A stretch of DNA of 63,299 nt, counting the filler, from Kipferlia bialata (Eukaryota): the NCBI GenBank assembly GCA_003568945.1. It is 7 parts of 6 records of this genome, joined end to end, with 100 filler letters (N's around TTAATTAATTAA, not from the genome) between each part and the next. Parts side by side here need not be neighbours in the genome. Positions count along the whole stretch, not along the records: positions 32,489 to 43,205 come from BDIP01001367.1; 6 more parts are not named here. One strand, written 5' to 3'. The first letter of the stretch is position 1. Each line of letters begins with the position of its first letter. The notes beneath the pieces were generated by a model. It made no database searches, was not told the DNA's origin, and saw only the letters and a program-made list of their open reading frames with translations. The translations under genes and the position numbers were made by a program. This document shows positions 1 through 43,205 of this stretch, piece after piece.

Positions 1-271
1 GGGTTCGAACCCCAGACAAACCGGGAACCAACTCAACAGAATAATCGGGGAGGATAGACCTAAATCGGGAACCACTTCCCGATTTTACCATGCCTGCTCT
101 CCAACCGTTCCCGGTTATACCAGGCCTGATGGAGTGGCAATCGTCTGATGGGAGTGGTCCACTGTAGACAGTACTGTACACATCTACAGTTACCATTCGA
201 AAGAGGTCTCCAAGTGTGTGTGACACACACTGTGTGTCTCTTTACCTCTCAATTGGTTGTCGATAGAACTC

Positions 272-1237
272 ATGTTTGACTATCCGGAGCTGTTTTTTGC
301 GTTTCAGTCGGTCGGCCTTCTCCCGGTTACTTGCGCTGCCGTGAACTCAATCGGCCACAACACACTGGCCGTATTACCACTCCAGCTCCTGGACCAGCAG
401 CCAGACTCTGGCCCAGAGATTCGCATCATAACGCTGAATTCCGACAGGAGTGTTGCAAGTGAGAGTCTAGCATTGCCACAGATAGCAGATCACCTCTATT
501 GTCTCGAAGGGGTGATCTATGCTGACCACGGCTCAGATCTATCAATGATCACGCTTGACACTCTCTCTTGCATTACATGGGAGGGGAGCAGGCACCTTCC
601 ATTCCCCTTCTCTGAGTGCTGCGCATTTTGGCACTTCACCCTGGACGGTCAAGGATTCCTTGTGGACGACGCTTTCTCTAACGAGGACGGGTGCCACATG
701 TGGCATCTAGGGGAGGATAGGAACACGTGGGTCGAGTCCGAGTTCTTGGCCCCTGTGCTGGTCTGCGATCCGTGTGTGATTGGACTCAGGGCATATGGGG
801 TAAACACGCAAGGACACATTGTGTCGTTTGACATCGCTAGCGGTTGGTCTGCTCCTAAGGGAAGTATGCCTCTCTGGGGTCACCCCATGCCTGTAATCGA
901 GGTTGATTCTATGTGCGTGGGACACTTCTTGCTGATCACACACCAGATAGAGACGGAGGACCGGTTCCGTGTGTGGAGGGTGTATGACACAATATCAGGA
1001 GAGCTGGGCACGCTCCCTATATTGTCGCCGGGACTCTGGTATGGGATGTATTCTCCTGCTCTATGCGTTCTGGATGTACCATACATGGGGACTGGTAATC
1101 TTGGCCTGGCCCAAGGGCCTTATGTCACCCAAGGCATTGCGTACTCGGTGAACCCTGCACTTGCATACCCCGACATTGAGATGGAGTGGGGCATACTACC
1201 CTGTGGACTACTAAACCTACCCGAGTCTCAGGACTAG
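272..1237 (+). CDS. Intronless hypothetical protein (~320 aa), possibly a divergent kelch/beta-propeller-like protein
   Basis: Long uninterrupted ORF with first ATG at 272 and TAG at 1235-1237. It has beta-strand-like segments with G/W motifs (MWHLGEDRNTWVE, IVSFDIASGWS, WRVYDTISGEL). The fold is inference only. Confidence 0.6.
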   Translation: MFDYPELFFAFQSVGLLPVTCAAVNSIGHNTLAVLPLQLLDQQPDSGPEIRIITLNSDRSVASESLALPQIADHLYCLEGVIYADHGSDLSMITLDTLSCITWEGSRHLPFPFSECCAFWHFTLDGQGFLVDDAFSNEDGCHMWHLGEDRNTWVESEFLAPVLVCDPCVIGLRAYGVNTQGHIVSFDIASGWSAPKGSMPLWGHPMPVIEVDSMCVGHFLLITHQIETEDRFRVWRVYDTISGELGTLPILSPGLWYGMYSPALCVLDVPYMGTGNLGLAQGPYVTQGIAYSVNPALAYPDIEMEWGILPCGLLNLPESQD

Positions 1238-25059: not shown

Positions 25060-27149
25060 CAGGCATCTGTTTTTTTGTAACAAGGTACATAAATTTTGAA
25101 AAGGAACATTTCGAGATTCAAAATCGGAACTTATCATTCCGTCACAATATATACTTTTCACCGAAATGGTCATGCAAAAACTCTGTTGTATACAAATTAG
25201 ATACCTTGAAAAAGGGTTGACCAAGGGGTCCAGGGGTCTAGTCTCTCGAGGTTTTTGAGGGCCATGACCATCATTTTAGAGCAATACAAAGAGCTTGCTT
25301 GCTCTAGAGGCTCCATCCTTCATCAGTATCGTTGACAACCACCCCAGGGAAAACTTGTTGGGTTCAGGTAATTTTTTACTATGTACTTTTTGCCACACCT
25401 TAGATTCATATACATGTAGGTGGCGTCAGGGTGGGGCTGTGTGCGTGCTGGGTGATTCATAGCCAAAACGGTACCGGTACCGGTGCATTTACCATAATTC
25501 TCTCTGATTGACCTGACACCGTATATGTACTATCCAATACTGCATGCCTGTTTTAGAAGGATGTCAGTCTCTGCCCCCCTCCCCATCTGATCACAGGACC
25601 CCGAGGTCAGGTGGTGGAGTCTTGGTTCTGGCACCAAGTGGTGCAGAGACAAGTTACGCTGGGTTCAGTCGTGGCTGGCCAAGGAGCAGAAGGACCTTGG
25701 CCCCTTGTTCTGGGTGCTGTTCCTTGTGCTAGATGACATCCTTGAGGACTTCAACAACTGCTTCAAGGTGCTCCAGAACCCCAGATCTACCATTGAGCAC
25801 CAGCAGCGTGGGTTCGAGGGACTAGTGGATGCACTGGGTGCCCGCATTGAGTGCCAACTCAACATGGTTGATGCTCCCTTCAATCCCGACCTGCCCTTTG
25901 AGTATATGGAGCGGCACAACAAGTGGGAGGCCAAGACCTCCACTGTCTACCAGTACATGTGCTGCAACAACCTTGTCATCTCTGACCTGCTCGAGGGCTA
26001 CCAGCAGCCCCCATACGATGGTGTGATGTGGAACCCCGCACTCTACGACACCATCAGCCAGGGTGCCCACTTCCTGATGGATGCCATGGAGAGAGTGGAG
26101 AGTATCCACGTGATCAGAGACACCAACAACCAGGGGTGCCCTTACACTGATGCCCCCCCCTGTCTGCCTCTCTCACTGCTCGGTCTCAGTCCTGCCAAGT
26201 TCTCCAACTACGTCAGGTTGTACAGGAAGAAGCTCCTCACTGTGTACGACGATGATTTCATCGACCGCATTGTGGAGGAGGCACGCCTGCTGAGACGGGA
26301 GCTGCAGTCTAGCCCTGACCTTAGGGATAGGCTAGAGGTAGCGGACAACAGGGAGTATGTCACCATTGCGGACAGTGAGGGCAACAAGACCCAGAAGATT
26401 AACTACGACTTCGACACTGCCTGGGCCCCCCTCGATGTTGCCAGGTACCCTGCCTTCTGTGCCTTCGCCGACGGTCTGGGCTCCACCTTCCCTGGCAGCT
26501 CCAGAGTGGAGTTTGAGTTCTCCATCATCAACAGTATCAAGGTATGGTATACAGACACTTCTTCAATCCATTCCGGTGGATATATTTATATATATTCCTG
26601 TAGACTGACACATAGACAGAGTACATGTCCCAGATATCCAACTTTGCCCTCGAGGGCATCATCTACGCCAAGCAGTTCCTGGAGCTCCTGGCTGGCCTAG
26701 AGGCTGCACGGAGGGCCCCCCACTCCATCTCTGACCTCAGTCGCATGAGTGAGGCAGAGGTCGATGTACTCATGGAGAGAGAGTGGTCGGAGGTAGATGT
26801 ATCTGATGATGCAGATGTGATTGCTGACGAGGGAGTGGGAGAGGCAGTTGGGTCTGCTCTACCATCTCCCTCAGACGGTCCAGTGGCTGCTAGTCCAGAG
26901 TCAGAGGATGAAGTGTGGGATTTCTCATAGTTTCTATATGCAATAGACGCAGTGTACATATGAGTGAGTGGCAGAGAGGCCTGTTTTTGTCTATTTGGCA
27001 TGAGGGTGTAGGTGTTTTTGGTAAGGGTGTAGGGGCATGTACCGAGGAACGTTGGAGGTACGTCCGAGGAACATTTCGGGAGTCTGAAAAAGGAACATAA
27101 ATGGACCCTTATGTACCTCTGTACCCCGGTACACAAAAAAAGATGCCTG
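25060..27149 (+). mobile_element. hAT-superfamily DNA transposon, 2,090 bp, probably non-autonomous/internally deleted
   Basis: Left end CAGGCATCTGTTTTTTTGT (from 25060) and right end ACACAAAAAAAGATGCCTG (to 27149) form imperfect TIRs. An exact 8-bp direct repeat AAAGGGTC lies at 25052-25059 and 27150-27157, the hAT-type TSD length. Transposase-like coding sequence lies inside. Confidence 0.9.
25597..26930 (+). CDS. hAT-like transposase, C-terminal half, with an intron at 26542-26615
   Basis: Open frame from DPEVRWWSLG (cf. hAT RW.S motif) to AWAPLDVARYPAFCAFADGLGSTFPGSSRVEFEFSIINSIK. Splicing GTATGG...ACTGACACATAG continues in frame into TEYMSQISNFALEGIIYAKQF, the hAT C-terminal catalytic-E/dimerisation signature. 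An acidic tail runs to TAG at 26930. The N-terminal DNA-binding and first Asp regions are not seen. Confidence 0.8.
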
Positions 27150-32314: not shown

Positions 32315-32542
32315 CTGGGGTTAGTGGAGATGGTAAGGGGTGTGGGGGGGGGGGAGAGAGAGACAGAATAAATGAAGAGACCGGTCCANNNNNNNNNNNN
32401 NNNNNNNNNNNNNNNNNNNNNNNNNNNNNNNNTTAATTAATTAANNNNNNNNNNNNNNNNNNNNNNNNNNNNNNNNNNNNNNNNNNNNGAGAGGGTGACA
32501 CTGCCACATGTCTCTCCCCTCCTATCCCCCCCCCCACCCCAG

Positions 32543-33609
32543 GCCGTGTGCTGTCCCACATGCACTGGGTCACCATGGTTGACATCAGCCACAACAACAT
32601 GTCTGTCCACTGCGCTGGGGGTACGGGGGGTAGTTGATAGGGAATATTATTGTGACTGGTACACTTTCTATCTATTTCTGTGACAGCCTCTCTCACCCAT
32701 CAGCCATTGTTATCGGGGCATCTCGGATACCAGCCTTGAAGTCACTATACATAGGTACCGAGTGATGTGAGCCAGTGAGTAGATACAGGCCTCAGACTTC
32801 AACCGATTCTCCGTGTACCTATCAGTACTCACTGTGATATCACTCACCCGTCCAGGTGGCAACTGTGTGGGCAGGGGGGCTGGAGCCGCTCTGCTACCCT
32901 GGATACACGGAGGGGAGGTGCGGCACTGACTGTGTCACTCCCAATCAGATGGTGGATGTTGACGCGTCATCGTGTAGTGATCTAAATGCATTAATTTCAC
33001 CTTTTAGCCTAACCCCCAGAACCTCACTCTGGCCTTCCTCCCTGGTGATGTATCCCAGGGGGAGGGGGACTTCCTGGAGAATGAGCTGCAGACCATTCCA
33101 TACAGGGTGAAACCAGGTGGGCACTGACTATCTATAGGTTCATTCTCTCCCCCTCCCCCTCATCGTCAGGCCACTCGTCGTGTCTCAGACTCCTATGTCT
33201 GCACCCATGGCTCCATGAGCCATACACGCAGGCACTCATGGAGTTGTTTGTGCACTCCAACCCCAAGCAAGGTGAGGGTCGATACCTTGACTTGTAATCT
33301 CTCCACATGCTCTCTTTGATGTGTCTAACCATAAGGGCAGCGCTACTCCGGCCCCCCCATCCACTTTGATCTGGAGGGCCATGTTCTCACAGACGCAGAG
33401 TGCGACACACTCACCTATCTGTTCGAGACAGCGAGGTACATGTGTATATATGCATTTACATTGGCACGAATCCTCCACTCTACCGAATCCCAACCACAAC
33501 GAAGTGCTCACCCCCCAGACTCGGTGCCACCTGCTCTGCCACAGGCTGTACCCCAGACAAGGACAGGCTGGTGCTGCTGGAGGACTCGGCCTCATACAAC
33601 GTGTACTAG
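32543..33609 (+). CDS. Hypothetical protein, 3' exons (5' partial)
   Basis: GT-AG-bounded open exons (RVLSHMHWVTMVDISHNNMSVHCAG; VATVWAGGLEPLCYPGY; ...LVLLEDSASYNVY*). Confidence 0.5.
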
Positions 33610-34589
33610 GATGGGAGATAGTTGTAATGTAATTGCGTGTTCTCCACTGGCTGTTTTCATCAGGCGAGTGTCGAGACACGTGTTTCCTTTAGTTTTGATA
33701 TATAGTGTGTTGTGTCATGTGTTCTTTGTGTTTAATAGACTCTTTAGACATCAACGTAAGAGTGTAAGGAGTAGCTTCTGAGACGATATTTACCCGGAAG
33801 AGCAGTGACAATGTGCCCGTTGCTGGACCCTTATCGGTTCAGGTACCATACTATAGTATATAGTGTATACTACATACTATATACAATATACTATATACTA
33901 TATACTATATACTATACATGTCAGGGTGGAGGCATCGTATAGAACAGAATGATGAAGTGGCGGTCTATTCTTCTGAGTAAGTGTCGAAGTTTGGGTCTCC
34001 AAACATGGCCTCCATGAGAGGATAGTCATTTAGCATCATCTCCCTCATGGTGGCCTCGTCCAGACTACACGGGTCCCTCTTGTAGTCCACCCGCTGCTGC
34101 ATCCTAGTACAGTGGGCCTCCCTTGCCGCTGCCCTCTGCTCCAGTCTCTGCTTCCTCATAAGGCCATGCCTGTCTCCCCAGAGCGGCAAAGAGAGGGAAC
34201 GGAGACCACAGAGTTCCTAGGAGTGAGTGTACTAGTGAAATAAGGCTTCACAACTAACTAAAGGTAGGTCGAATGGGTACTTCTCTGTATATGTCTACAA
34301 GTGCTGAAGGACGCCACATATCGGGAAGTGAGTAATGACGCACCTCACAGTCGATGGACAAGACCCCCGCCTCCATCTCTCGATCCGGTTCCTGATCGAT
34401 GCATTGCTCATACTCAGACGAGAACTCTGAGTCATCGTACTCTTGTGGTGAGACGACACAGAGAGTGTATTCGAACTAATATGTCGAGGACTACATGAGG
34501 CGAAGATACAAGGGCTACTGATACTCTCAGGAAGAATTAACTGTCGTATGGACCAGAAAAGCACCTTCTCCCTTGTACAGGACTAGGAC

Positions 34590-36900
34590 TAGCGTGTCCA
34601 TGCCACAATAACCAAAGGGGGCGAGGAGGGCTTCGTCAAACCTAAGGGTCAGGACTTGGTCTCGTCAAATACACTAATAGTCACTATGCGCACCGGTACT
34701 GTGATACAGTTGTGTTCCAGATCCCAGAGACATGTGATGGAAAGAGGTGCCCCACATAGAGCCACTCGTCAGACACCATGTCTAGCAGGGCAGACTGTAG
34801 TGAGAAGAAAGGTGAACAGAGTAGAAGTGATACCACCTGTACTGTACCGGGCACATGCCTTATCCTGACATAATGACCAGACAACATACACTGATATACC
34901 TCATTGCCTGCCTCGCCAAAGCAGAGGATCTTTTGCTGTGGGAGATGTGGGTTAGGACGGTCGCCGAGTGAGAAACAATCAGCGTTCAACTACTAGTATG
35001 TGGTGTATCAGACATGTGTCAGATGTTTCAAAGGATGCACCACACTCTACCGTACCCCAATGATCTGTCCCGACGGCTGAGAGCCTATGGGTGGACTTGA
35101 CACTGTCCATCTCCCCTGTGCGCGTGTTGCAGTGTCAGTCTCAACCAGTGACAGCGTGACATGGTGTTCAGTGGTGAATATGTGGAGAACGTCGCCACAC
35201 ACTGTGTATCTTTGATTAGATCGATCATTTTGGAGACTACTACTGAGGTTGCTGATGAACCACGTCATGAAAGGGGAGGGAGACCCACCGGTTTGTGTTC
35301 CACCGGGACACGTCCACCTCCCTAGGTATGTCGGGTAGTGGTACCCAGCAACTGACGATGAGTTTACATTGCTATTCTAGGGTCGCCCTACTACGGTGTG
35401 AATCACCGTGAAATCAAGAAGTGAATATAGAGTATGGACTTCTCATATTCAAAGTATATTAGATACATATTGACACCATTCAACTTACGTATCCGCAGGA
35501 TCATAGCAGAACGCCTTGCGACTCCATGTTGGCTCAATGTTGCCCTCCTGTGAAGAGATAGACATGCCACCAGTCAGAACATACTAAGTGAGACGGGGGA
35601 GGAGTCACCCTTGAGATCTTGACACCCTTACTTGTAATTATGAATACTGATATATCGGTACATGACACTCTAGAGACACGTGTACGGCAAGATGAATATC
35701 ACTCACCATACTGTCGAGGCAACACGCAATGCTCTTTCTAGATGGAGGGGGCCAGATGATACCACTCTCCCCAGCTCCACCGGTCCTGTCCCACTGTTCC
35801 ATACGGCCCATGAACTCTTCCTCTGCTTGACGCCTTACACCCGAGAGCTTGGTTTCAATACAGGTCAGAGCACGGTGAATACGCCCATGTAGCTGGATCT
35901 GCTGGTCTGTGACTGTCGCGTTGCAGTCTGACGCAAGGTCCTCATGCAGCCTCCGTCGGGCAGTCTCTACAGCCTGTATTTCCTTGGCCATGCTCCGTCG
36001 GGCTGCCTCATACATCTGTTGGACATATGCCTTTTGTCTGACCCGACGCCGGGCCATGACTACAGCTATACGATCTCTCTGGGGTCAGAGTCCAATAGTG
36101 TAACGTATGAACAGACATGACACCAGTACGATAGGTGCCATTGATACTGGCGTCCGCACTACTTCGTACTAGTATTATACACATATTGGCTGAGTGCCTG
36201 GGTCATCACTGCTTGTCGAACAGCCACTCACCACTCCAGTCCTAGTCCACCTGTGGGTGTCTAACTCGTATTCAGATAGGGTGCCCTGGAGTTCTGTCTG
36301 ACCTGAGACAACCTATGGTCAGTCAACGTGAGGGATGCTGGTAACGGTGGGAACCCATAACCCAGGAAGCAGGGTCATATAGTATAGTTGTCATCTTGAC
36401 ACTCGTGTAGCACATCACTTAGGGATGAATACATCATCTGTTACCCACCTGGCTGCCCCCGAACCCATAGACTCTGCCTCCCACCGTGACATATACAGTG
36501 TCTGGCGTTATTAGGAGGATCCACTGGGAACTCTTCGAGTCTCCTGTATGGCACCTACCTGCCTCTCTCGACTCGAGAGTGGTACTCAGTGTGTAGTGGT
36601 TACTGTCAGCGACATTGCAGCAAAGCGTCACAAGTCCCTGAGGCGTGTGTACTGTGGAATGTGTCGCATATATAGGTGGTGCAATGTCTTCGTAATTCCA
36701 AAACACCACTTTTTACCATACACACATACACACTTGAATATCAAACTAACCTGAGGGAAGTACTCTCTGTTAGTGTCTCCACTATCTTCGTCCACATCCT
36801 GCCATCCCTCTTCATCCATGAGCAGGGCACATCTCTGTCCTATACCAGCCACACATCCCACAGAGTGGCTGAGAGGCAGATCGGAGGTGATTCCACCCAT
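34590..36900 (-). CDS. Cluster of poorly resolved minus-strand hypothetical coding segments (possibly kelch-like family fragments and a short helical ORF at 35638-36057)
   Basis: Segments such as VGCVAGIGQRCALLM, VTVGGRVYGFGG and RYTVCGDVLHIF resemble divergent beta-propeller blades. Exon joins could not be resolved and the region may be pseudogenic. Confidence 0.3.
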
Positions 36901-37228
36901 GCCATATGAGCTAGTCTCCTCAGCATTATGGAGAGGTGTGAAGGCAAAAGGAAGGGGCAGGGGTTTGGGGTCCTGGACATAAGGAAGGAGACACCCGCCT
37001 AGTCAGTGTCGAAGGTATGGAATGGGTGGGACATGCATTCAACATCTACTCAAACGAAACACCTCTCCACGCTGTCCACAGAATTGAACAAGACGATACC
37101 TCTCTGCTTCTCCCTGTCATTGTAAGGAGCGTCTTTTGCCACTCTTTGCTTGTCACTATGCCACTAGAAGGAATGCGCCACTGGTCAAAATTGGGTAGAA
37201 TAACCCTTTATTTCGTTTTTGATTACTA

Positions 37229-40223
37229 TTGTTAAGTATAACTTACTTTGTCCAGACCTCCCCTGCCACCCAGCACGAGTCTGCCCAGGCCGACAGCATC
37301 CCTGACACCGCTGCCCGCACCGCCCCTGACGCCACCCCCTCGGCCCCCGAGCGCAAGCCCACCCAAGCCGACAGCATCCCTGACACCGCTGCCCCCGCCC
37401 CCAAGCACAGGTCTGCCCCCAGACGTGAGTCGGTTTGGACTGCCACCAAGTCCAAGCCCACTCGGCCCCGCACCGCCTCTGCCCATGCCGCCCCTAGCCC
37501 TAGTGACAGCGACACATCCCCCAAGACCCACACCCACAGGACATCCCGCTACAACAGGAAGCCCCGGTTCTCTGATGTACGCATGCGCCAGTGTGTAGTG
37601 TGTGGAGACCGCCACAAGACTCGCGCTGAATGCATTCAGCATGAGATTGAGACGCACAACCTATACAGAGGGGAGTCCCGGTACCCCCTCTGCAGGGCGT
37701 GTGGCATACCCATCTCCACCCTGAGGGATCTTATTCCTCATCTGGACCAGTGCAACCCAGGTAGGGGGACCGCACACAGCGCCTTTGCCCTCAGGCTGTC
37801 TCTCTCCGAGAGAGCGAGAGGTGCTCTCCGCGCTGACACCACCCAGACCGCTGGCCCTGTCACTGCCTCTGCTCCTGCCGACAAGGCCGTTGCTTCCACG
37901 GCTGCTGGCACCACCCAGGCCACTGGCTCTGCCACTGCCGATGAGGCCATAGCTCCCTCTGCTACGGATGCTGCCCAGGCCACCGCCTCTGCCCCTGCTG
38001 ACGAGGCCACCGCTCCCTCTGNNNNNNNNNNNNNNNNNNNNNNNNNNNNNNNNNNNNNNNNNNNNNNNNNNNNNNNNNNNNNNNNNNNNNNNNNNNNNNN
38101 NNNNNNNNNNNNNNNNNNNNNNNNNNNNNNNNNNNNNNNNNNNNNNNNNNNNNNNNNNNNNNNNNNNNNNNNNNNNNNNNNNNNNNNNNNNNNNNNNNNN
38201 NNNNNNNNNNNNNNNNNNNNNNNNNNNNNNNNNNNNNNNNNNNNNNNNNNNNNNNNNNNNNNNNNNNNNNNNNNNNNNNNNNNNNNNNNNNNNNNNNNNN
38301 NNNNNNNNNNNNNNNNNNNNNNNNNNNNNNNNNNNNNNNNNNNNNNNNNNNNNNNNNNNNNNNNNNNNNNNNNNNNNNNNNNNNNNNNNNNNNNNNNNNN
38401 NNNNNNNNNNNNNNNNNNNNNNNNNNNNNNNNNNNNNNNNNNNNNNNNNNNNNNNNNNNNNNNNNNNNNNNNNNNNNNNNNNNNNNNNNNNNNNNNNNNN
38501 NNNNNNNNNNNNNNNNNNNNNNNNNNNNNNNNNNNNNNNNNNNNNNNNNNNNNNNNNNNNNNNNNNNNNNNNNNNNNNNNNNNNNNNNNNNNNNNNNNNN
38601 NNNNNNNNNNNNNNNNNNNNNNNNNNNNNNNNNNNNNNNNNNNNNNNNNNNNNNNNNNNNNNNNNNNNNNNNNNNNNNNNNNNNNNNNNNNNNNNNNNNN
38701 NNNNNNNNNNNNNNNNNNNNNNNNNNNNNNNNNNNNNNNNNNNNNNNNNNNNNNNNNNNNNNNNNNNNNNNNNNNNNNNNNNNNNNNNNNNNNNNNNNNN
38801 NNNNNNNNNNNNNNNNNNNNNNNNNNNNNNNNNNNNNNNNNNNNNNNNNNNNNNNNNNNNNNNNNNNNNNNNNNNNNNNNNNNNNNNNNNNNNNNNNNNN
38901 NNNNNNNNNNNNNNNNNNNNNNNNNNNNNNNNNNNNNNNNNNNNNNNNNNNNNNNNNNNNNNNNNNNNNNNNNNTGCTGCTGTTGCTGCCCAGGCCACCG
39001 CCTCTGCCCCTGCTGACGAGGCCATCGCTTCCTCTGCTGCTGAGGCTACCCAGGCCACCGCCTCTGCCCCTACGGACGAGGCCATCGCTCCCTCTGCTGC
39101 TGAGGCTGCCCTGGCCCCTGCCTCTGCCCCTGCCGCCGAGGCCAGCGCTTCCATGGCTGTTGACACCACCCAGGCCCAGGCCCCTGCCACTGCCGCCGAG
39201 GCCATCGCTTCCTTGGCCGCAGACATCGCCCAGGCCCTTGCCTCTGCCACTGCCGACGAGGTTATCGCTCCCTCTGCTGCTGGCGCCGCCCGGACCCCTG
39301 TCCCTGCCCCCGCTATCACAACAGATGCTGTCCTCTCGGATGAGGAGTCCTCAGACTCTGGTGACTCCCTGTCCCCCGTCCCACCTCCCCCCCAGATGAC
39401 CTCCTCCCCAGAGGTCATCGACCTACCACTAGGTCCCATACGCCAAGGCCCTCCCCCCCCCTTCAACGACGTAGGTGCCATCACCCGGGAAGACCTCCAG
39501 GAGATCCTCAAGAACGGAGACCTCTGGTTCCACGCTCAGATGCTTGATGACTGGATGCAGAAGTGCCTCCATCTACCTGGGGTAGACCAGGCTCTCGTCC
39601 AACGTGCCCCCCCTATCGCCCTAGAGCACTCATGGGCGCACCTAGACACCCCAGGCCACACTCAGGTGTTCACCAATGAGGATGGCGACATGGTTGGTAT
39701 GCTGCGCCTGCCCCGCAGACAACACTATGTCACCTTCTCTGTCTTTGGCGGGAACAGGGTGGAGGTGTGGGACCCTGTGCCCCAAGACACCCCAGAGGAG
39801 GAGCTCATCCAGTTGCTTCGGTTCCTCCTTCCTGACCACATCAAGGCCAGGGGCCTGCAGCTCATGTCTGGCTGTCTCAAGCGTCAGGTTGGGGGATCCA
39901 GCTGCGGTGCCATTGCGGCTATGATCTTCTACATACTTGTGTCCAACCTCCGCCCTAATCTAGTGGCCTTTGGACAGGACACAATCAGGAAGGCAATCCT
40001 GCAGCACCTCATGGACATTGACTGCCCCATCCCCTTCCACTCCCGGAGAGACACCAAGCCCAGACCGTGCACCAACCCGTGCATATACCCCATCCCAGCC
40101 GGGGTCCCCCCTGAGGGCTCTGACTACTGGAGGAGCGGAGGAGTCGCTGACCAACACGCGGGCAGCGGCCCCACCGAGGTACTTACCTTCAGTGACTCTG
40201 CCCCTGGTCCTGCCACGGAATAG
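37229..40223 (+). CDS. Retrotransposon ORF1: two zinc fingers, Ala-rich 20-aa repeats, Ulp1/C48-like cysteine protease
   Basis: CVVCGDRHKTRAECIQHEIETH (C2H2) and CRACGIPISTLRDLIPHLDQC (C2HC) at ~37592-37752. The same AQATASAPADEAIAPSA repeat flanks both sides of the 38022-38974 gap, implying one ORF. Protease-like motifs: His 39723 (QHYV), Asp 39771 (VWDP), Gln 39885 and Cys 39903 (RQVGGSSCG). Ends at TAG 40221-40223; true start uncertain. Confidence 0.8.
37844..39290 (+). repeat. Coding 60-bp (20-aa) tandem repeat in retrotransposon ORF1, partly hidden in the N gap 38022-38974
   Basis: Units such as GCCCAGGCCACCGCCTCTGCCCCTGCTGACGAGGCCATCGCT(T/C)CCTCTGCT recur on both sides of the gap. Confidence 0.9.
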
Positions 40224-40257
40224 GATGAGGTGGACCACAGCCCCCAGGTTGTGGTCC
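40221..40257 (+). promoter_or_regulatory. Candidate translational readthrough signal: UAG + 8-nt spacer + 11-bp stem-loop
   Basis: TAG (40221-23), GATGAGGT (40224-31), then GGACCACAGCC-CCCA-GGTTGTGGTCC (40232-40257; 10 Watson-Crick pairs + 1 G-U). ORF1 and ORF2 are in the same frame. Confidence 0.55.
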
Positions 40258-43205
40258 CCCCTGACCCCCACCTAGCTCAGATTGAGGTCCCCTTGTCCCC
40301 CGCCGACCTCCTCGAGGCCGTGCGTGCCCAGAGAGCCATTCTAGCAGCTCATCTCGGTCTGTTCCCAGGAGACGCTATTGCCAGGCACCCCCTCAACGAC
40401 AGCACCCACGGACAGATCGTCTTCCGCTGTTGCCGCCGCTGTAAGGGTATATGCGTGTCCACCTCCTCGTCCACCAAGGTGTGCTTCCCCTGCACCGGCA
40501 GTAAGAAGCCCAGGGCTAATGACATTGGAGACAGAACACTAGGCACTCACCCCAAGACGAGGGAGAGGTGCACCAACTTCACCTACACTGGGGAGAAGTA
40601 CATTGACCTCCTAGTCAAGAGACGCTTCCCCAACGGCATCCCACTCACTGCCCCACCACCCAGGCCCGCCCCTACCCCCAAGCCTAAGGTTCACCTTCCC
40701 GCCTCTCGCATCAAGTCGCCCCGCCGCCCCAGACTGACCCGCCGAACCCAGAAGCTGCCCCACAGGCTCCGACCTGGGGTCCCTGACTCCCTGATCCAGG
40801 CCATCGTGACCAGGCTACTGACTCTCGTTAGCCCCAATAGTGACAGGATAGCGCCATTTGCATGGCACGACCTGTTTGACACCCTGTCCCTCCTGCGCCT
40901 CAAGGGCAATGGCAGAGATAAGAGGATAGCAGTCCGCCTCGACCAGATCGAGCAGGGGACATATATCCCCCATGCTGCCCCGACGCTCAAGCTCAACAGC
41001 CAGCGCTCCAGAGAGAGGGACGTCAAGCATGCTATGAGGCTGATCCATGAGTATCGGCCAGCGGCCTCCTGCAGCCTCTTGGACCGTGACACCTCCATTG
41101 CCAAGCATGGCGCTGCCACCCTCCTGGCTCTCCAGAAGCTACACCCCGGGGACCCCTTCGAGGAGGTCTCTGCCTATATCGACATCGTGCGAGCCACAGC
41201 ACGGGCCGACATAGCCGAGTTCAAGCTCCCCGTCTTCACAGCCGGCACCGTGGCCAAGCAGATGCAGGAGCTGAGGAGTGGATCCTCCGCTGGCCCCTCT
41301 GGTCTGAGCGCCAAGATGCTCAAGCAGCTGAGGTCCAGATGCCCCCAGGAGCTTAAGAACAGCTTCGACGGAGCCCTAGCCAGAGTGGTCAATGCCATCC
41401 TTGCTGGACGCATACCGGTGGAGATGTTTAACAGCAGGTTGGTGGCACTGAACAAGGGCCCCAATGGCATCAAGGGCATCAGGCCCATTGCTGTCTCCGA
41501 GGTCCTCATCCGCCTGGCAGGCTGCTGTGCCAACTCCGTCTGCACCGAGCCCCTCAAGGAGCTCTTTGGATCCACCCAGTTCGCCCTCCAGCAGTGCTCC
41601 ACCGAGACCGTAGCCAGGCTGCTCCAATATCACACAAGCAAGGGCCGCTTTATCTGCAGCTCCGATTTCCGCAATGCATTCAATACCCTCCTGAGACAGG
41701 CCATCATTGCTGCGGTCCGCCTCCAGTTCCCAGCCCTCCTGCCCTATGTTACCGCTGCCCTTGGCGGGGTGGGCAACAATGCCTCCCTCTTCTGGGGCAA
41801 TGAGACCATTGAGTCTGCCCGCGGTGTGCGCCAAGGTGATCCCCTCTCCCCCATCCTGTTCTCCCTGACCGTCCTGCCTATCCTCCGGACCCTAGAGGCT
41901 GAGTTCCCCGGCCTTATTGTCATCGCTTACCATGACGACGTCTACCTGATCTCTGATGATGAGGAGATGCTCCAGAGGGCCTGGGCCCGCTTCCTCTCTC
42001 TGGCAGGCAAGGTCGGCCTTTCCCCCCGTCATGACAAGTGTTTCGCCAACAAGGGCAGGTTCTCCCTCGAGGATGAGGACGGTGTCACCAAGCCAGTCAC
42101 CATCACCCCCGAGTTTGTTGCCCTGGGTGTCCCCATTGGATCCCCTGCCTACATCACCAAGCACGTCAACAAGGTGACGGACAAGGCCCTCAGGCTTGAG
42201 GGTCACATCACCCCCTTGGAGGTGCATGAGTACTGGCTTGTCCTTACCCGTTGCATTGTCACCAAGGTCACGTACCTCACCAGGGCGGGCCTAGATCCCG
42301 ACCTGTTGATGCCCCTTGCCAAGGGCTTCGATGCCGAGATTAGACGCCGCCTCTGCAACAAGTTTGGTATCAGCCCCTCCATCCTTACCCCTATGCTTCA
42401 CCTCCCCGCCTGGGCCAGGGGTCAGGGCCTACCCTCCATGCAGGTAGACACACTTGTCGGGGCCATTGCCGGACTCACTGGCACGGTGCAGACCATCCTT
42501 TCCCTCCACATCGACGTGGACCTCCAGTCCCTTGCCGCTCCCCTTCAGAACAGCCAGATCATCTTCTCCACCAAGGAGCCAGGCTGGCCCACCTCTGCCC
42601 AGAACGCCATTGACCTCGCAAGCACAAGCCGTGCTCTCCACTTTGTAGCCCACAAGAGAGTCCTCACCCACCTAGTCGAGAGGGACCCCCCCCCCTTCTT
42701 CCCTTTCGACCTCGACTTAGGTATCACCCCCGACCCCCTGACAATGGCGCAACTGGTGGAGTACCTCGCCCTCCCCAACTCCGCCCCAGCCAAGGGCCAG
42801 AGCCAGACCAGTGGCAGGCTCTCTGTCTTCCACACCTTACCCACAGCTTACTGCAGAGCCTCCAATGCGGCCATGGCCCTGCAACTCCGTATCAACAACG
42901 GCGCCTCTCTTGGCTCTGACTCCGCCATCCCTGGCCCAGATCCTGTCTGCCCCAGGTGCACCATGCCCCTCATTCACGGGCATGGACATCAATGCTCTAA
43001 GCGCACCAGTTTCATCAGTGCCAGACACAACATGATCCGCGACTGTGTGGCCAACCTCGGCAAGAGGGGGGGCCTGACCACAATACCTGAGGCCCTGCTT
43101 CAGGACCACCAGGGCAACCCTCTCCTCCCTCTCTCCCCGACCCCCCCCTCTGATGAGTTTACATCACCGAAGTCCGGCTATGGCGTTTCCCCAAGAGGCT
43201 GCCAG
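40224..43205 (+). CDS. Retrotransposon ORF2: Cys-rich segment, reverse transcriptase and start of the restriction-like endonuclease region (3' partial)
   Basis: RT motifs SSAGPSGL, IRPIAVSEVLIRLAG, SSDFRNAFN, RGVRQGDPLSPILF, AYHDD (41928-41939) and LGVPIG. C-terminal CPRC-x8-H-x-C...ARHNMIRD is typical of RLE-type elements. First in-frame ATG is only at 41034. Confidence 0.93.

What the first reader, a model, noticed from the sequence alone, without database searches (positions are those of the whole stretch)
40200..40270. Candidate programmed UAG readthrough (MLV-type layout) joining ORF1 and RT in a non-LTR retrotransposon
Seen: ORF1 ends GAA-TAG at 40221-40223 and the frame continues open (GAT GAG GTG GAC CAC...) for ~1,000 codons through RT, with no in-frame ATG until 41034. 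After the TAG come a G at +4, an 8-nt purine-rich spacer (GATGAGGT) and an 11-bp hairpin GGACCACAGCC-CCCA-GGTTGTGGTCC. Established: murine leukaemia virus gag-pol readthrough uses UAG-G, an 8-nt purine-rich spacer and a downstream RNA structure (a pseudoknot). RLE-type non-LTR elements usually have one ORF or separately framed ORFs. Host genes here end in TAG (21127, 29438), so this is not code reassignment. Inference: the element makes abundant ORF1 and a rare ORF1-RT-RLE fusion by readthrough, a retrovirus-like strategy I do not know of in this element group.
Basis: partly seen in the sequence, partly recalled or inferred. Interest (0 to 1): 0.88.

Follow-up and report, generated by a model that had tools for sequence, protein, structure and literature searches.

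The report
Retrotransposon with conserved leaky-type stop junction
A jumping gene in a single-celled eukaryote has its protease gene and its reverse-transcriptase gene in one reading frame, split by one UAG stop that is followed by the element's strongest predicted RNA hairpin; related elements end the first gene at the same spot, so the enzyme is likely made when ribosomes occasionally read through that stop, as in mouse leukaemia virus.

Summary
TAG 40221-40223 is the only in-frame stop between a Ulp1/C48-protease-like ORF1 and a 994-codon RT ORF that has no in-frame ATG for 270 codons. An 11-bp stem starts 8 nt after the stop and is the strongest local fold among 4,971 windows of the element. 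The codon before the stop is GAA, which the element nearly avoids (3 of 67 Glu codons). The 32 codons after the stop score as in-frame coding. Three related ORF1 proteins (two families, 33-36% identical) end 102-106 residues after the catalytic Cys, as this one does (106), so a private nonsense mutation is unlikely. Best reading: programmed UAG readthrough (about 0.68). Main rival: restart at a non-AUG codon (about 0.2). Not shown: the relatives' DNA could not be fetched, so frame, stop identity and hairpin conservation are untested; no pseudoknot was found; nothing tests translation. Readthrough has already been proposed in print for APE-type Paramecium LINEs; I found no report for an RLE-type element. 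New variant of a known kind.

The parts
37223..38021 (+). ORF1, 5' part: open frame with two short N-terminal repeats and two Cys/His (zinc-finger-like) motifs; no ATG before 37583; true start unresolved
   Evidence: weak zinc-finger Pfam hits below cut-off; coding-like codon score from about 37283
37850..39332 (+). Array of 60-nt (20-codon) Ala-rich repeats in ORF1, interrupted by the assembly gap 38022-38974; frame across the gap is inferred, not seen
38976..40223 (+). ORF1, 3' part, ending at TAG 40221-40223
39480..40090 (+). Ulp1/Peptidase C48-like cysteine protease domain (His at 39723, Asp, Gln, Cys at 39903)
   Evidence: Atlas top hits 0.94-0.96, C48 on 16-39% of cluster members; HMMER hit P0045 (E 1.5e-4) is Pfam C48; Gln and Cys-Gly invariant in alignment; no direct Pfam hit
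40218..40220 (+). GAA codon 5' of the stop (two adenines at -2 and -1)
   Evidence: 3 of 67 Glu codons are GAA; 14 of 1,675 codons end in AA
40221..40223 (+). In-frame UAG stop, proposed readthrough site
40224..40231 (+). 8-nt spacer GATGAGGT; holds an out-of-frame ATG (40225, 16 codons, stop at 40273) and the first two bases of an in-frame GTG (40230)
40232..40257 (+). 11-bp stem-loop, predicted readthrough stimulator
40224..40319 (+). 32-codon linker between the stop and the point where relative P0001's called protein starts; scores as in-frame coding
40428..40493 (+). Cys-rich motif shared with P0001 (partly with P0002), about 200 codons upstream of the first in-frame ATG
40224..43205 (+). 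ORF2: RT (Pfam RVT_1 at 41469-42044) and the CCHC/RHN/E part of an RLE domain (42948-43091); cut by the scaffold end

Best explanation
This RLE-type non-LTR retrotransposon has ORF1 (zinc-finger-like motifs, repeats, Ulp1-like protease) and ORF2 (RT and endonuclease) in one frame separated by a single UAG, and it likely makes its RT as an ORF1-ORF2 fusion by programmed stop-codon readthrough. Most ribosomes would stop at the UAG and release ORF1 protein. A minority, favoured by the AA before the stop and delayed by the stem 8 nt downstream at the mRNA entry channel, would insert an amino acid and continue. Shown: frame, single stop, no ATG for 270 codons, conserved protein sequence upstream of that ATG, the stem as a computed fold, the shared end point of ORF1 in relatives. 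Inferred: that readthrough happens, its rate, the role of the stem and of the AA, and that the relatives use the same route.
For: (1) ORF2's N-terminal 270 codons must be translated without an in-frame ATG: they align with P0001 (53% over the aligned N-terminal stretch) and P0002. (2) The stop is not private: HMMER over 1.84 billion representatives gave 3 hits for the protease part; P0043 (33%) and P0044 (36%), plus P0046 (13 of 138 residues differ from P0044), end 102, 106 and 106 residues after the catalytic Cys-Gly, against 106 here. P0043 and P0001 both have a longest contig of 6,557 bases, so they are probably ORF1 and ORF2 of one element. No fused protease-RT protein came up (no length limit, 728-2075 aa). 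(3) The strongest 30-nt fold of 4,971 windows starts 8 nt after the stop (about 0.3% by position), the spacing reported for MuLV, alphavirus and tobravirus readthrough structures (PMC3159437, passages and Introduction). (4) GAA before the stop is rare here (3 of 67), and adenines at -1/-2 are a reported 5' stimulator (PMC3159437 Introduction). The relatives end in Gln, Gln, Gln and this one in Glu, all codable as NAA; Glu+Gln+Lys are 11% of residues, but their codons were not seen. (5) The 32 codons after the stop score +9.2 bits as in-frame coding (in-frame windows 8.3 +/- 5.1; best of 84 out-of-frame windows -6.7; best of 206 flank windows 6.6). (6) An ATG one base after the stop leads into a dead-end 16-codon frame, which should trap restarting ribosomes (inference).
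Against: No DNA of the close relatives could be read, so frame, stop identity and stem conservation there are untested. P0001's called protein begins with M at the position of codon 32 after our stop; if that is a real ATG, the relative may restart there. In-frame GTG/TTG codons lie at 40230, 40251, 40293 and 40320. No pseudoknot. A second hairpin in ORF1 has an equal synonymous z-score. The full-length element looks single-locus (DNA depth 517 inside, 532 on a contig reaching about 3.3 kb upstream of the open frame), so fixation across copies could not be tested. Of 80 distant loci (best 80 of 110 confirmed; scan stopped at 28 of 64 parts), none shows this layout; 23 were open to the contig end and uninformative. 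Candida Tca2 has an MLV-like stop, 8-nt spacer and structure, yet its junction gave only background readthrough in yeast reporters (PMC2194720, passages). The 5' adenine preference is described as not absolute (PMC13517186, passages). The GAA and stem statistics were chosen after seeing the site.
Confidence: 0.68

Rival explanations
1. Termination and restart (L1- or SART1-like): ribosomes end ORF1 at the UAG and restart at a non-AUG codon, such as GTG 40230 or GTG 40320, making ORF2 as a separate protein; the stem would aid coupling.
For: In-frame GTG at codon 3 with purines at -3 and +4, and GTG at codon 33 next to where P0001's called protein starts with M. SART1 coupling needs a structure downstream of the stop-start site, and L1 uses unconventional restart (PMC5972666, passages). 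A conserved ORF1 end fits this reading equally well.
Against: The linker scores as coding up to codon 32, which argues against a start at codon 32-33 but not at codon 3. The out-of-frame ATG at 40225 should compete (inference). GTG 40230 overlaps the base of the stem, a poor place to start (own knowledge). It does not explain the rare GAA.
Confidence: 0.2
2. A minor RNA form removes or recodes the stop: a 69-nt in-frame intron (40179-40247) or A-to-I editing of UAG to UGG.
For: One AG|GT...YYYCAG pair spans the stop in frame; the host is intron-rich (PMC6679479, passages).
Against: Such pairs span 10 of 84 control positions in ORF2, so one is unremarkable. A spliced RNA that is retrotransposed would lose the stop, yet relatives keep the ORF1 end (inference). 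The UAG is outside the predicted stem.
Confidence: 0.06
3. A private nonsense mutation in a dead copy of a single-ORF element; stem and context are chance.
For: The element looks single-locus; most CRE, NeSL and Utopia elements have one ORF (PMC12278014 and PMC4640811, passages).
Against: Three related proteins of two families end at the same place; no fused form found; no other stop or frame break in the 1,675 readable codons; stem and GAA each unlikely by chance.
Confidence: 0.04
4. UAG is a sense codon in this host (Hexamitinae-type code, TAA/TAG = Gln), so the element has one ORF.
For: Hexamitinae, relatives of the likely host lineage, use this code (PMC11437800, passages).
Against: 68 Gln codons in the element are CAA/CAG and there is no other in-frame TAG or TAA; P0001 (1,083 aa) and P0002 (1,063 aa) were called as single open proteins; a sense TAG would not fall at one spot in every relative.
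Confidence: 0.01

Closest known systems
Murine leukaemia virus gag-pol UAG readthrough (PMC3159437 Introduction and passages; PMC13517186 passages)
   Same: In-frame UAG between a first ORF and the RT ORF, G at +4, 8-nt purine-rich spacer, downstream structure.
   Different: Plain stem-loop with no pseudoknot found; host element is a non-LTR retrotransposon; ORF1 is protease-bearing, not Gag; no experimental test.
Stem-loop-stimulated readthrough in alphaviruses, tobraviruses and benyviruses (PMC3159437, passages)
   Same: 11-12 bp stem 8-9 nt after the stop; xxA before the stop in tobra-type sites.
   Different: Most use UGA-C and a long loop; here UAG-G and a 4-nt loop; those stems have covariation support, this one does not yet.
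Paramecium tetraurelia non-LTR Group 3 (PMC5405496; passages and one row of Table S3)
   Same: Non-LTR element with ORF1 and ORF2 in frame across a stop; authors suggest readthrough from consensus sequences.
   Different: APE-type, not RLE-type; in the passages seen there is no stimulatory structure and no test; ciliate genetic code (own knowledge).
Candida albicans Tca2 LTR retrotransposon (PMC2194720, abstract and passages)
   Same: In-frame stop, 8-nt purine-rich spacer, predicted structure.
   Different: LTR element, UGA; its 300-nt junction did not drive readthrough in yeast, a caution for this case.
CRE clade (SLACS, CZAR, CRE1/2, MoTeR, FoTeR) (PMC12857005, PMC12278014, passages)
   Same: RT followed by a CCHC-RHN-E RLE signature matching the published SLACS/CRE pattern; N-terminal zinc-finger-like motifs and internal repeats.
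   Different: Most have one ORF; no protease mentioned in PMC12278014 (0 hits for Ulp1 or protease); target site and RT clade not established here.
NeSL and Utopia-1_TSP (PMC4640811, passages)
   Same: RLE-type elements with an N-terminal Ulp1-like protease.
   Different: There the protease is part of one protein with RT; here a stop separates them.

Membership tests
MLV-type (gammaretroviral) readthrough signal | In-frame UAG between upstream ORF and RT ORF | tested here: met
MLV-type (gammaretroviral) readthrough signal | 8-nt purine-rich spacer starting with G | tested here: met
   GATGAGGT, 6 of 8 purines
MLV-type (gammaretroviral) readthrough signal | H-type pseudoknot after the spacer | tested here: not met
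   No partner for the CCCA loop within 80 nt; only 4-bp matches that need stem bases (simple complementarity search, not a pseudoknot program)
Structure-stimulated stop-codon readthrough (general) | Stable stem 8-12 nt after the stop | tested here: met
Structure-stimulated stop-codon readthrough (general) | Stem conserved or covarying in relatives | not testable with these tools
   Only proteins of close relatives were reachable; DNA scans did not return their contigs
Structure-stimulated stop-codon readthrough (general) | Measured fusion product that depends on the stem | not testable with these tools
   needs reporter assay, ribosome profiling or proteomics
RLE-type non-LTR retrotransposon | Non-LTR-type RT | tested here: met
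   RVT_1 E 1.3e-16; nearest solved proteins are R2 RTs, E 4e-15
RLE-type non-LTR retrotransposon | C-terminal CCHC, RHD/N, E and PD-(D/E)xK-type RLE core | tested here: inconclusive
   CCHC-RHN-E present in window and P0001; the RxD...ExK core is seen in P0001 only, because the window copy is cut at 43205; P0002 did not match the strict pattern
RLE-type non-LTR retrotransposon | 3' tail, target-site duplication, multiple insertions | not testable with these tools
   3' end outside the scaffold; no genome held
CRE clade | RT groups with SLACS/CRE/Cnl1 in a tree | tested here: inconclusive
   Quick tree of 29 rows without labelled references: window, P0001 and P0002 form one clade (SH-aLRT 98), deeper position open
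CRE clade | Site-specific insertion in a repeat (spliced-leader gene, telomere) | not tested
   Element ends not defined; no Rfam match of note on the scaffold
Ulp1/Peptidase C48 | His-Asp-Cys triad order with Gln before Cys | tested here: met
   Motifs in order; Gln and Cys-Gly invariant with P0045, a Pfam C48 member; Atlas
Ulp1/Peptidase C48 | Fold match | tested here: inconclusive
   Models had mean pLDDT 44 and 33; Foldseek found nothing at E <= 0.001

The most novel reading that the evidence does not exclude
A lineage of RLE-type non-LTR retrotransposons in fornicate protists has independently evolved a retrovirus-style recoding cassette (AA-UAG-G, 8-nt spacer, stem-loop). It sets a fixed ratio between an abundant stand-alone Ulp1-like protease protein, possibly acting against host SUMO/ubiquitin-like silencing, and a rare protease-RT-endonuclease fusion. 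It would be the first structure-stimulated readthrough signal in an RLE-type element that my searches could find.
Probability: 0.5. Interest if true: 0.76.

Novelty: new variant of a known kind. Interest (0 to 1): 0.6.

Why it matters
How LINE-type elements express their second ORF is a long-standing open question; the worked-out cases are restart mechanisms (SART1, L1) and 2A peptides. A compact 40-nt signal with a rare 5' context, a UAG and a strong stem is directly testable in a standard reporter. If it works, it extends structure-stimulated readthrough from viruses to an early-branching retrotransposon group and to a metamonad ribosome. It would also suggest why an element would want far more of a SUMO-protease-like domain than of its RT.

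Tried and rejected
No whole genome is held, so copies could not be collected. No RNA holder is listed on record; X1 is only guessed to be RNA. Its depth relative to X2 is 33-fold higher on this element than on a paralogous stretch, which hints at RNA but is not used as evidence of expression. No joint or A-to-G change at the stop appeared in contigs, but contigs drop rare forms. Small shares in two metagenome runs (X3, X4) laid as four short near-identical pieces, none at the junction. A read-based check of the element's 5' end and of host single-copy depth was not obtained, so copy number rests on one flank contig. Scans of viral and prokaryote contigs found no relative. The metagenome scan gave 80 distant loci, none with this layout; L014 has a long in-frame ORF before a stop, but that stop lies inside the RT region. 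L057 has TAG-GAT-GAA before its RT ORF but no downstream fold and lies outside the stretch shared with L056; rejected as chance. A search for N-terminal ORF2 fragments of 54-245 aa found none. Ten exact look-ups of window-derived proteins found none. Structure predictions of the protease were too poor to use; PDB sequence search gave nothing. Rfam gave two chance-level matches; no tRNA in the window. An Atlas search of the ORF2 N-terminus did not complete. The careful tree did not finish; only the quick tree is cited. A frameshift rescue of the +1 ATG frame was considered by eye and dropped: no X-XXY-YYZ site in its 16 codons. Paper searches for readthrough in non-LTR elements listed no RLE-type case; the library lacks most subscription papers and Repbase reports, and these searches also missed the Paramecium paper, so absence from print is not established.

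Full report
Setting. The window is a string of separate scaffolds joined by N-linker-N spacers. The finding lies on the scaffold 32489-43205, which has a gap at 38022-38974 and ends inside ORF2. The host is an intron-rich eukaryote. Two close relatives of ORF1 are named Kipferlia bialata by their source, so the host is probably that fornicate or near it; this is an inference. No whole genome was held.

Observation. The sequence reads GAA-TAG-GATGAGGT followed by an 11-bp stem with a CCCA loop. The frame is open for 415 codons before the stop (back to the gap) and for 994 codons after it; the first in-frame ATG after the stop is at 41034. Contigs of two runs from one sample cross the site with no difference. 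The stem is real as a computed fold: z -4.62 with 0 of 200 shuffles, 3 of 3000 synonymous recodings, best of 4,971 30-nt windows in the element, pair probabilities of 0.97 or more. One other hairpin, at 37421-37459, has a similar synonymous z-score but is weaker in energy. I found no pseudoknot partner for the loop.

What the element is. ORF2 has a non-LTR RT (RVT_1; nearest solved proteins are R2 RTs) and a CCHC-RHN-E signature that matches the SLACS/CRE pattern given in PMC12857005 (passages; test). The endonuclease core lies past the scaffold end but is present in the 55%-identical relative P0001. ORF1 holds zinc-finger-like motifs, 20-codon repeats and a Ulp1/C48-like protease (folds uninformative). 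Ulp1-like domains are known from NeSL and Utopia-1_TSP, in one protein with RT (PMC4640811, passages). Window, P0001 and P0002 form one clade in a quick tree of 29 rows; its clade name is not settled.

Is the stop private damage? Probably not. A HMMER search of 1.84 billion representatives with the protease part returned 3 proteins. One, P0045, is a distant C48 protein with another C-terminus. P0043 (33%) and P0044 (36%), and P0044's cluster mate P0046, end 102, 106 and 106 residues after the catalytic Cys-Gly; the window's ORF1 ends after 106. P0043 and P0001 share a longest-contig length of 6,557 bases, which suggests one element with a separate ORF1 and ORF2. P0001's and P0002's called proteins begin about 32 codons past our stop. 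No fused protein was found. These are gene calls; I did not see the DNA, so the frame and the stop codon in the relatives are unknown. The window's own full-length element looks single-locus: DNA depth is 517 inside it and 532 on a contig running about 3.3 kb upstream of the open frame; the tool warns that depth is a poor copy count.

How is ORF2 reached? The 270 codons before the first ATG include a Cys-rich motif and other blocks conserved in relatives, so they are translated. Four points favour readthrough. The stem sits at the 8-nt spacing reported for MuLV and several RNA viruses (PMC3159437, Introduction and passages; PMC13517186, passages). The codon before the stop is GAA, though the element uses GAA in 3 of 67 Glu codons and ends only 14 of 1,675 codons in AA; two other long ORFs in the window show the same avoidance, and adenines at -1/-2 are a reported stimulator, though not an absolute one. 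The 32 codons after the stop score +9.2 bits under the element's codon model, inside the in-frame range (8.3 +/- 5.1, 42 windows, in-sample) and above all 84 out-of-frame and 206 flank windows; mere openness would be weak, since 34% of out-of-frame 32-codon windows are open. An ATG one base after the stop opens a dead-end 16-codon frame, which a restart mechanism should be selected to lose (inference).

Rivals. Restart at a non-AUG codon remains possible: GTG at codon 3 is not excluded by codon scores, P0001's called start could be a true ATG, and SART1 uses a downstream structure for stop-start coupling (PMC5972666, passages). A 69-nt in-frame cryptic intron spans the stop, but such pairs span 10 of 84 control sites. 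Reassignment of TAG to Gln, as in Hexamitinae (PMC11437800, passages), does not fit 68 CAA/CAG codons against one TAG. Tca2 shows that an MLV-like layout need not act as a local readthrough signal (PMC2194720, abstract and passages).

Breadth. Among 80 distant metagenome loci (best 80 of 110; 28 of 64 parts scanned) none has this layout; 23 were uninformative. The trait seems limited to this small lineage so far.

Comparison with what is known. It works like structure-stimulated readthrough and matches the MLV signal in stop, +4 base and spacer, but it fails the pseudoknot test, so it is not an MLV-type signal in the strict sense. Readthrough between ORF1 and ORF2 of a non-LTR element was suggested for APE-type Paramecium Group 3 (PMC5405496, passages and one Table S3 row). 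I was led to that paper by earlier AI notes of this scan, which also list other LINE cases, one NeSL/Utopia-like with UGA and a hairpin; those notes are leads, not support. My paper searches listed no RLE-type case, but they also missed the Paramecium paper, and Repbase and subscription papers are not covered. PMC5009743 was seen as passages only.

Verdict. Real feature; readthrough likely (0.68), restart the main rival (0.2). New variant of a known kind. Interest 0.6; 0.76 if the stem-dependent fusion is shown.

Noticed in passing
window 37223-37582: ORF1 is open and scores as coding for about 120 codons before its first ATG (37583), just after an AT-rich stretch ending in a possible splice acceptor near 37256; the start may be non-AUG or on a spliced exon.
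   Followed up: partly
window 37421-37459: A second strong hairpin inside the ATG-less 5' part of ORF1, with a synonymous z-score equal to the junction stem.
   Followed up: no
window 43151-43200: In run X2 depth rises (875 against 471) and a contig joins other sequence at 43151, which may be a 5'-truncated or chimeric copy and may explain the scaffold break.
   Followed up: no
window 41430-41501 and 41779-41953: Paralogous RT stretches at higher DNA depth (1,273 and 1,811 against 517) point to at least two more families, probably multi-copy, in the same genome.
   Followed up: partly
beyond window 43200: An X1 contig of 6,988 bases continues unbroken about 2.8 kb past the laid stretch, far beyond the expected ORF2 end: a long 3' region or flank.
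   Followed up: no
window 25591-26700: Intronless 369-codon ORF that looks by eye like the C-terminal part of a DNA transposase; no Pfam hit.
   Followed up: partly
element ORFs; window 224-1237 and 25591-26700: Near-total avoidance of AAA and GAA codons (0 AAA among 56 Lys codons in the element).
   Followed up: partly
X3, X4 on window 40746-41084 and 42148-42914: Short pieces 98-100% identical to the element occur in two metagenome runs; too little to name a habitat.
   Followed up: no
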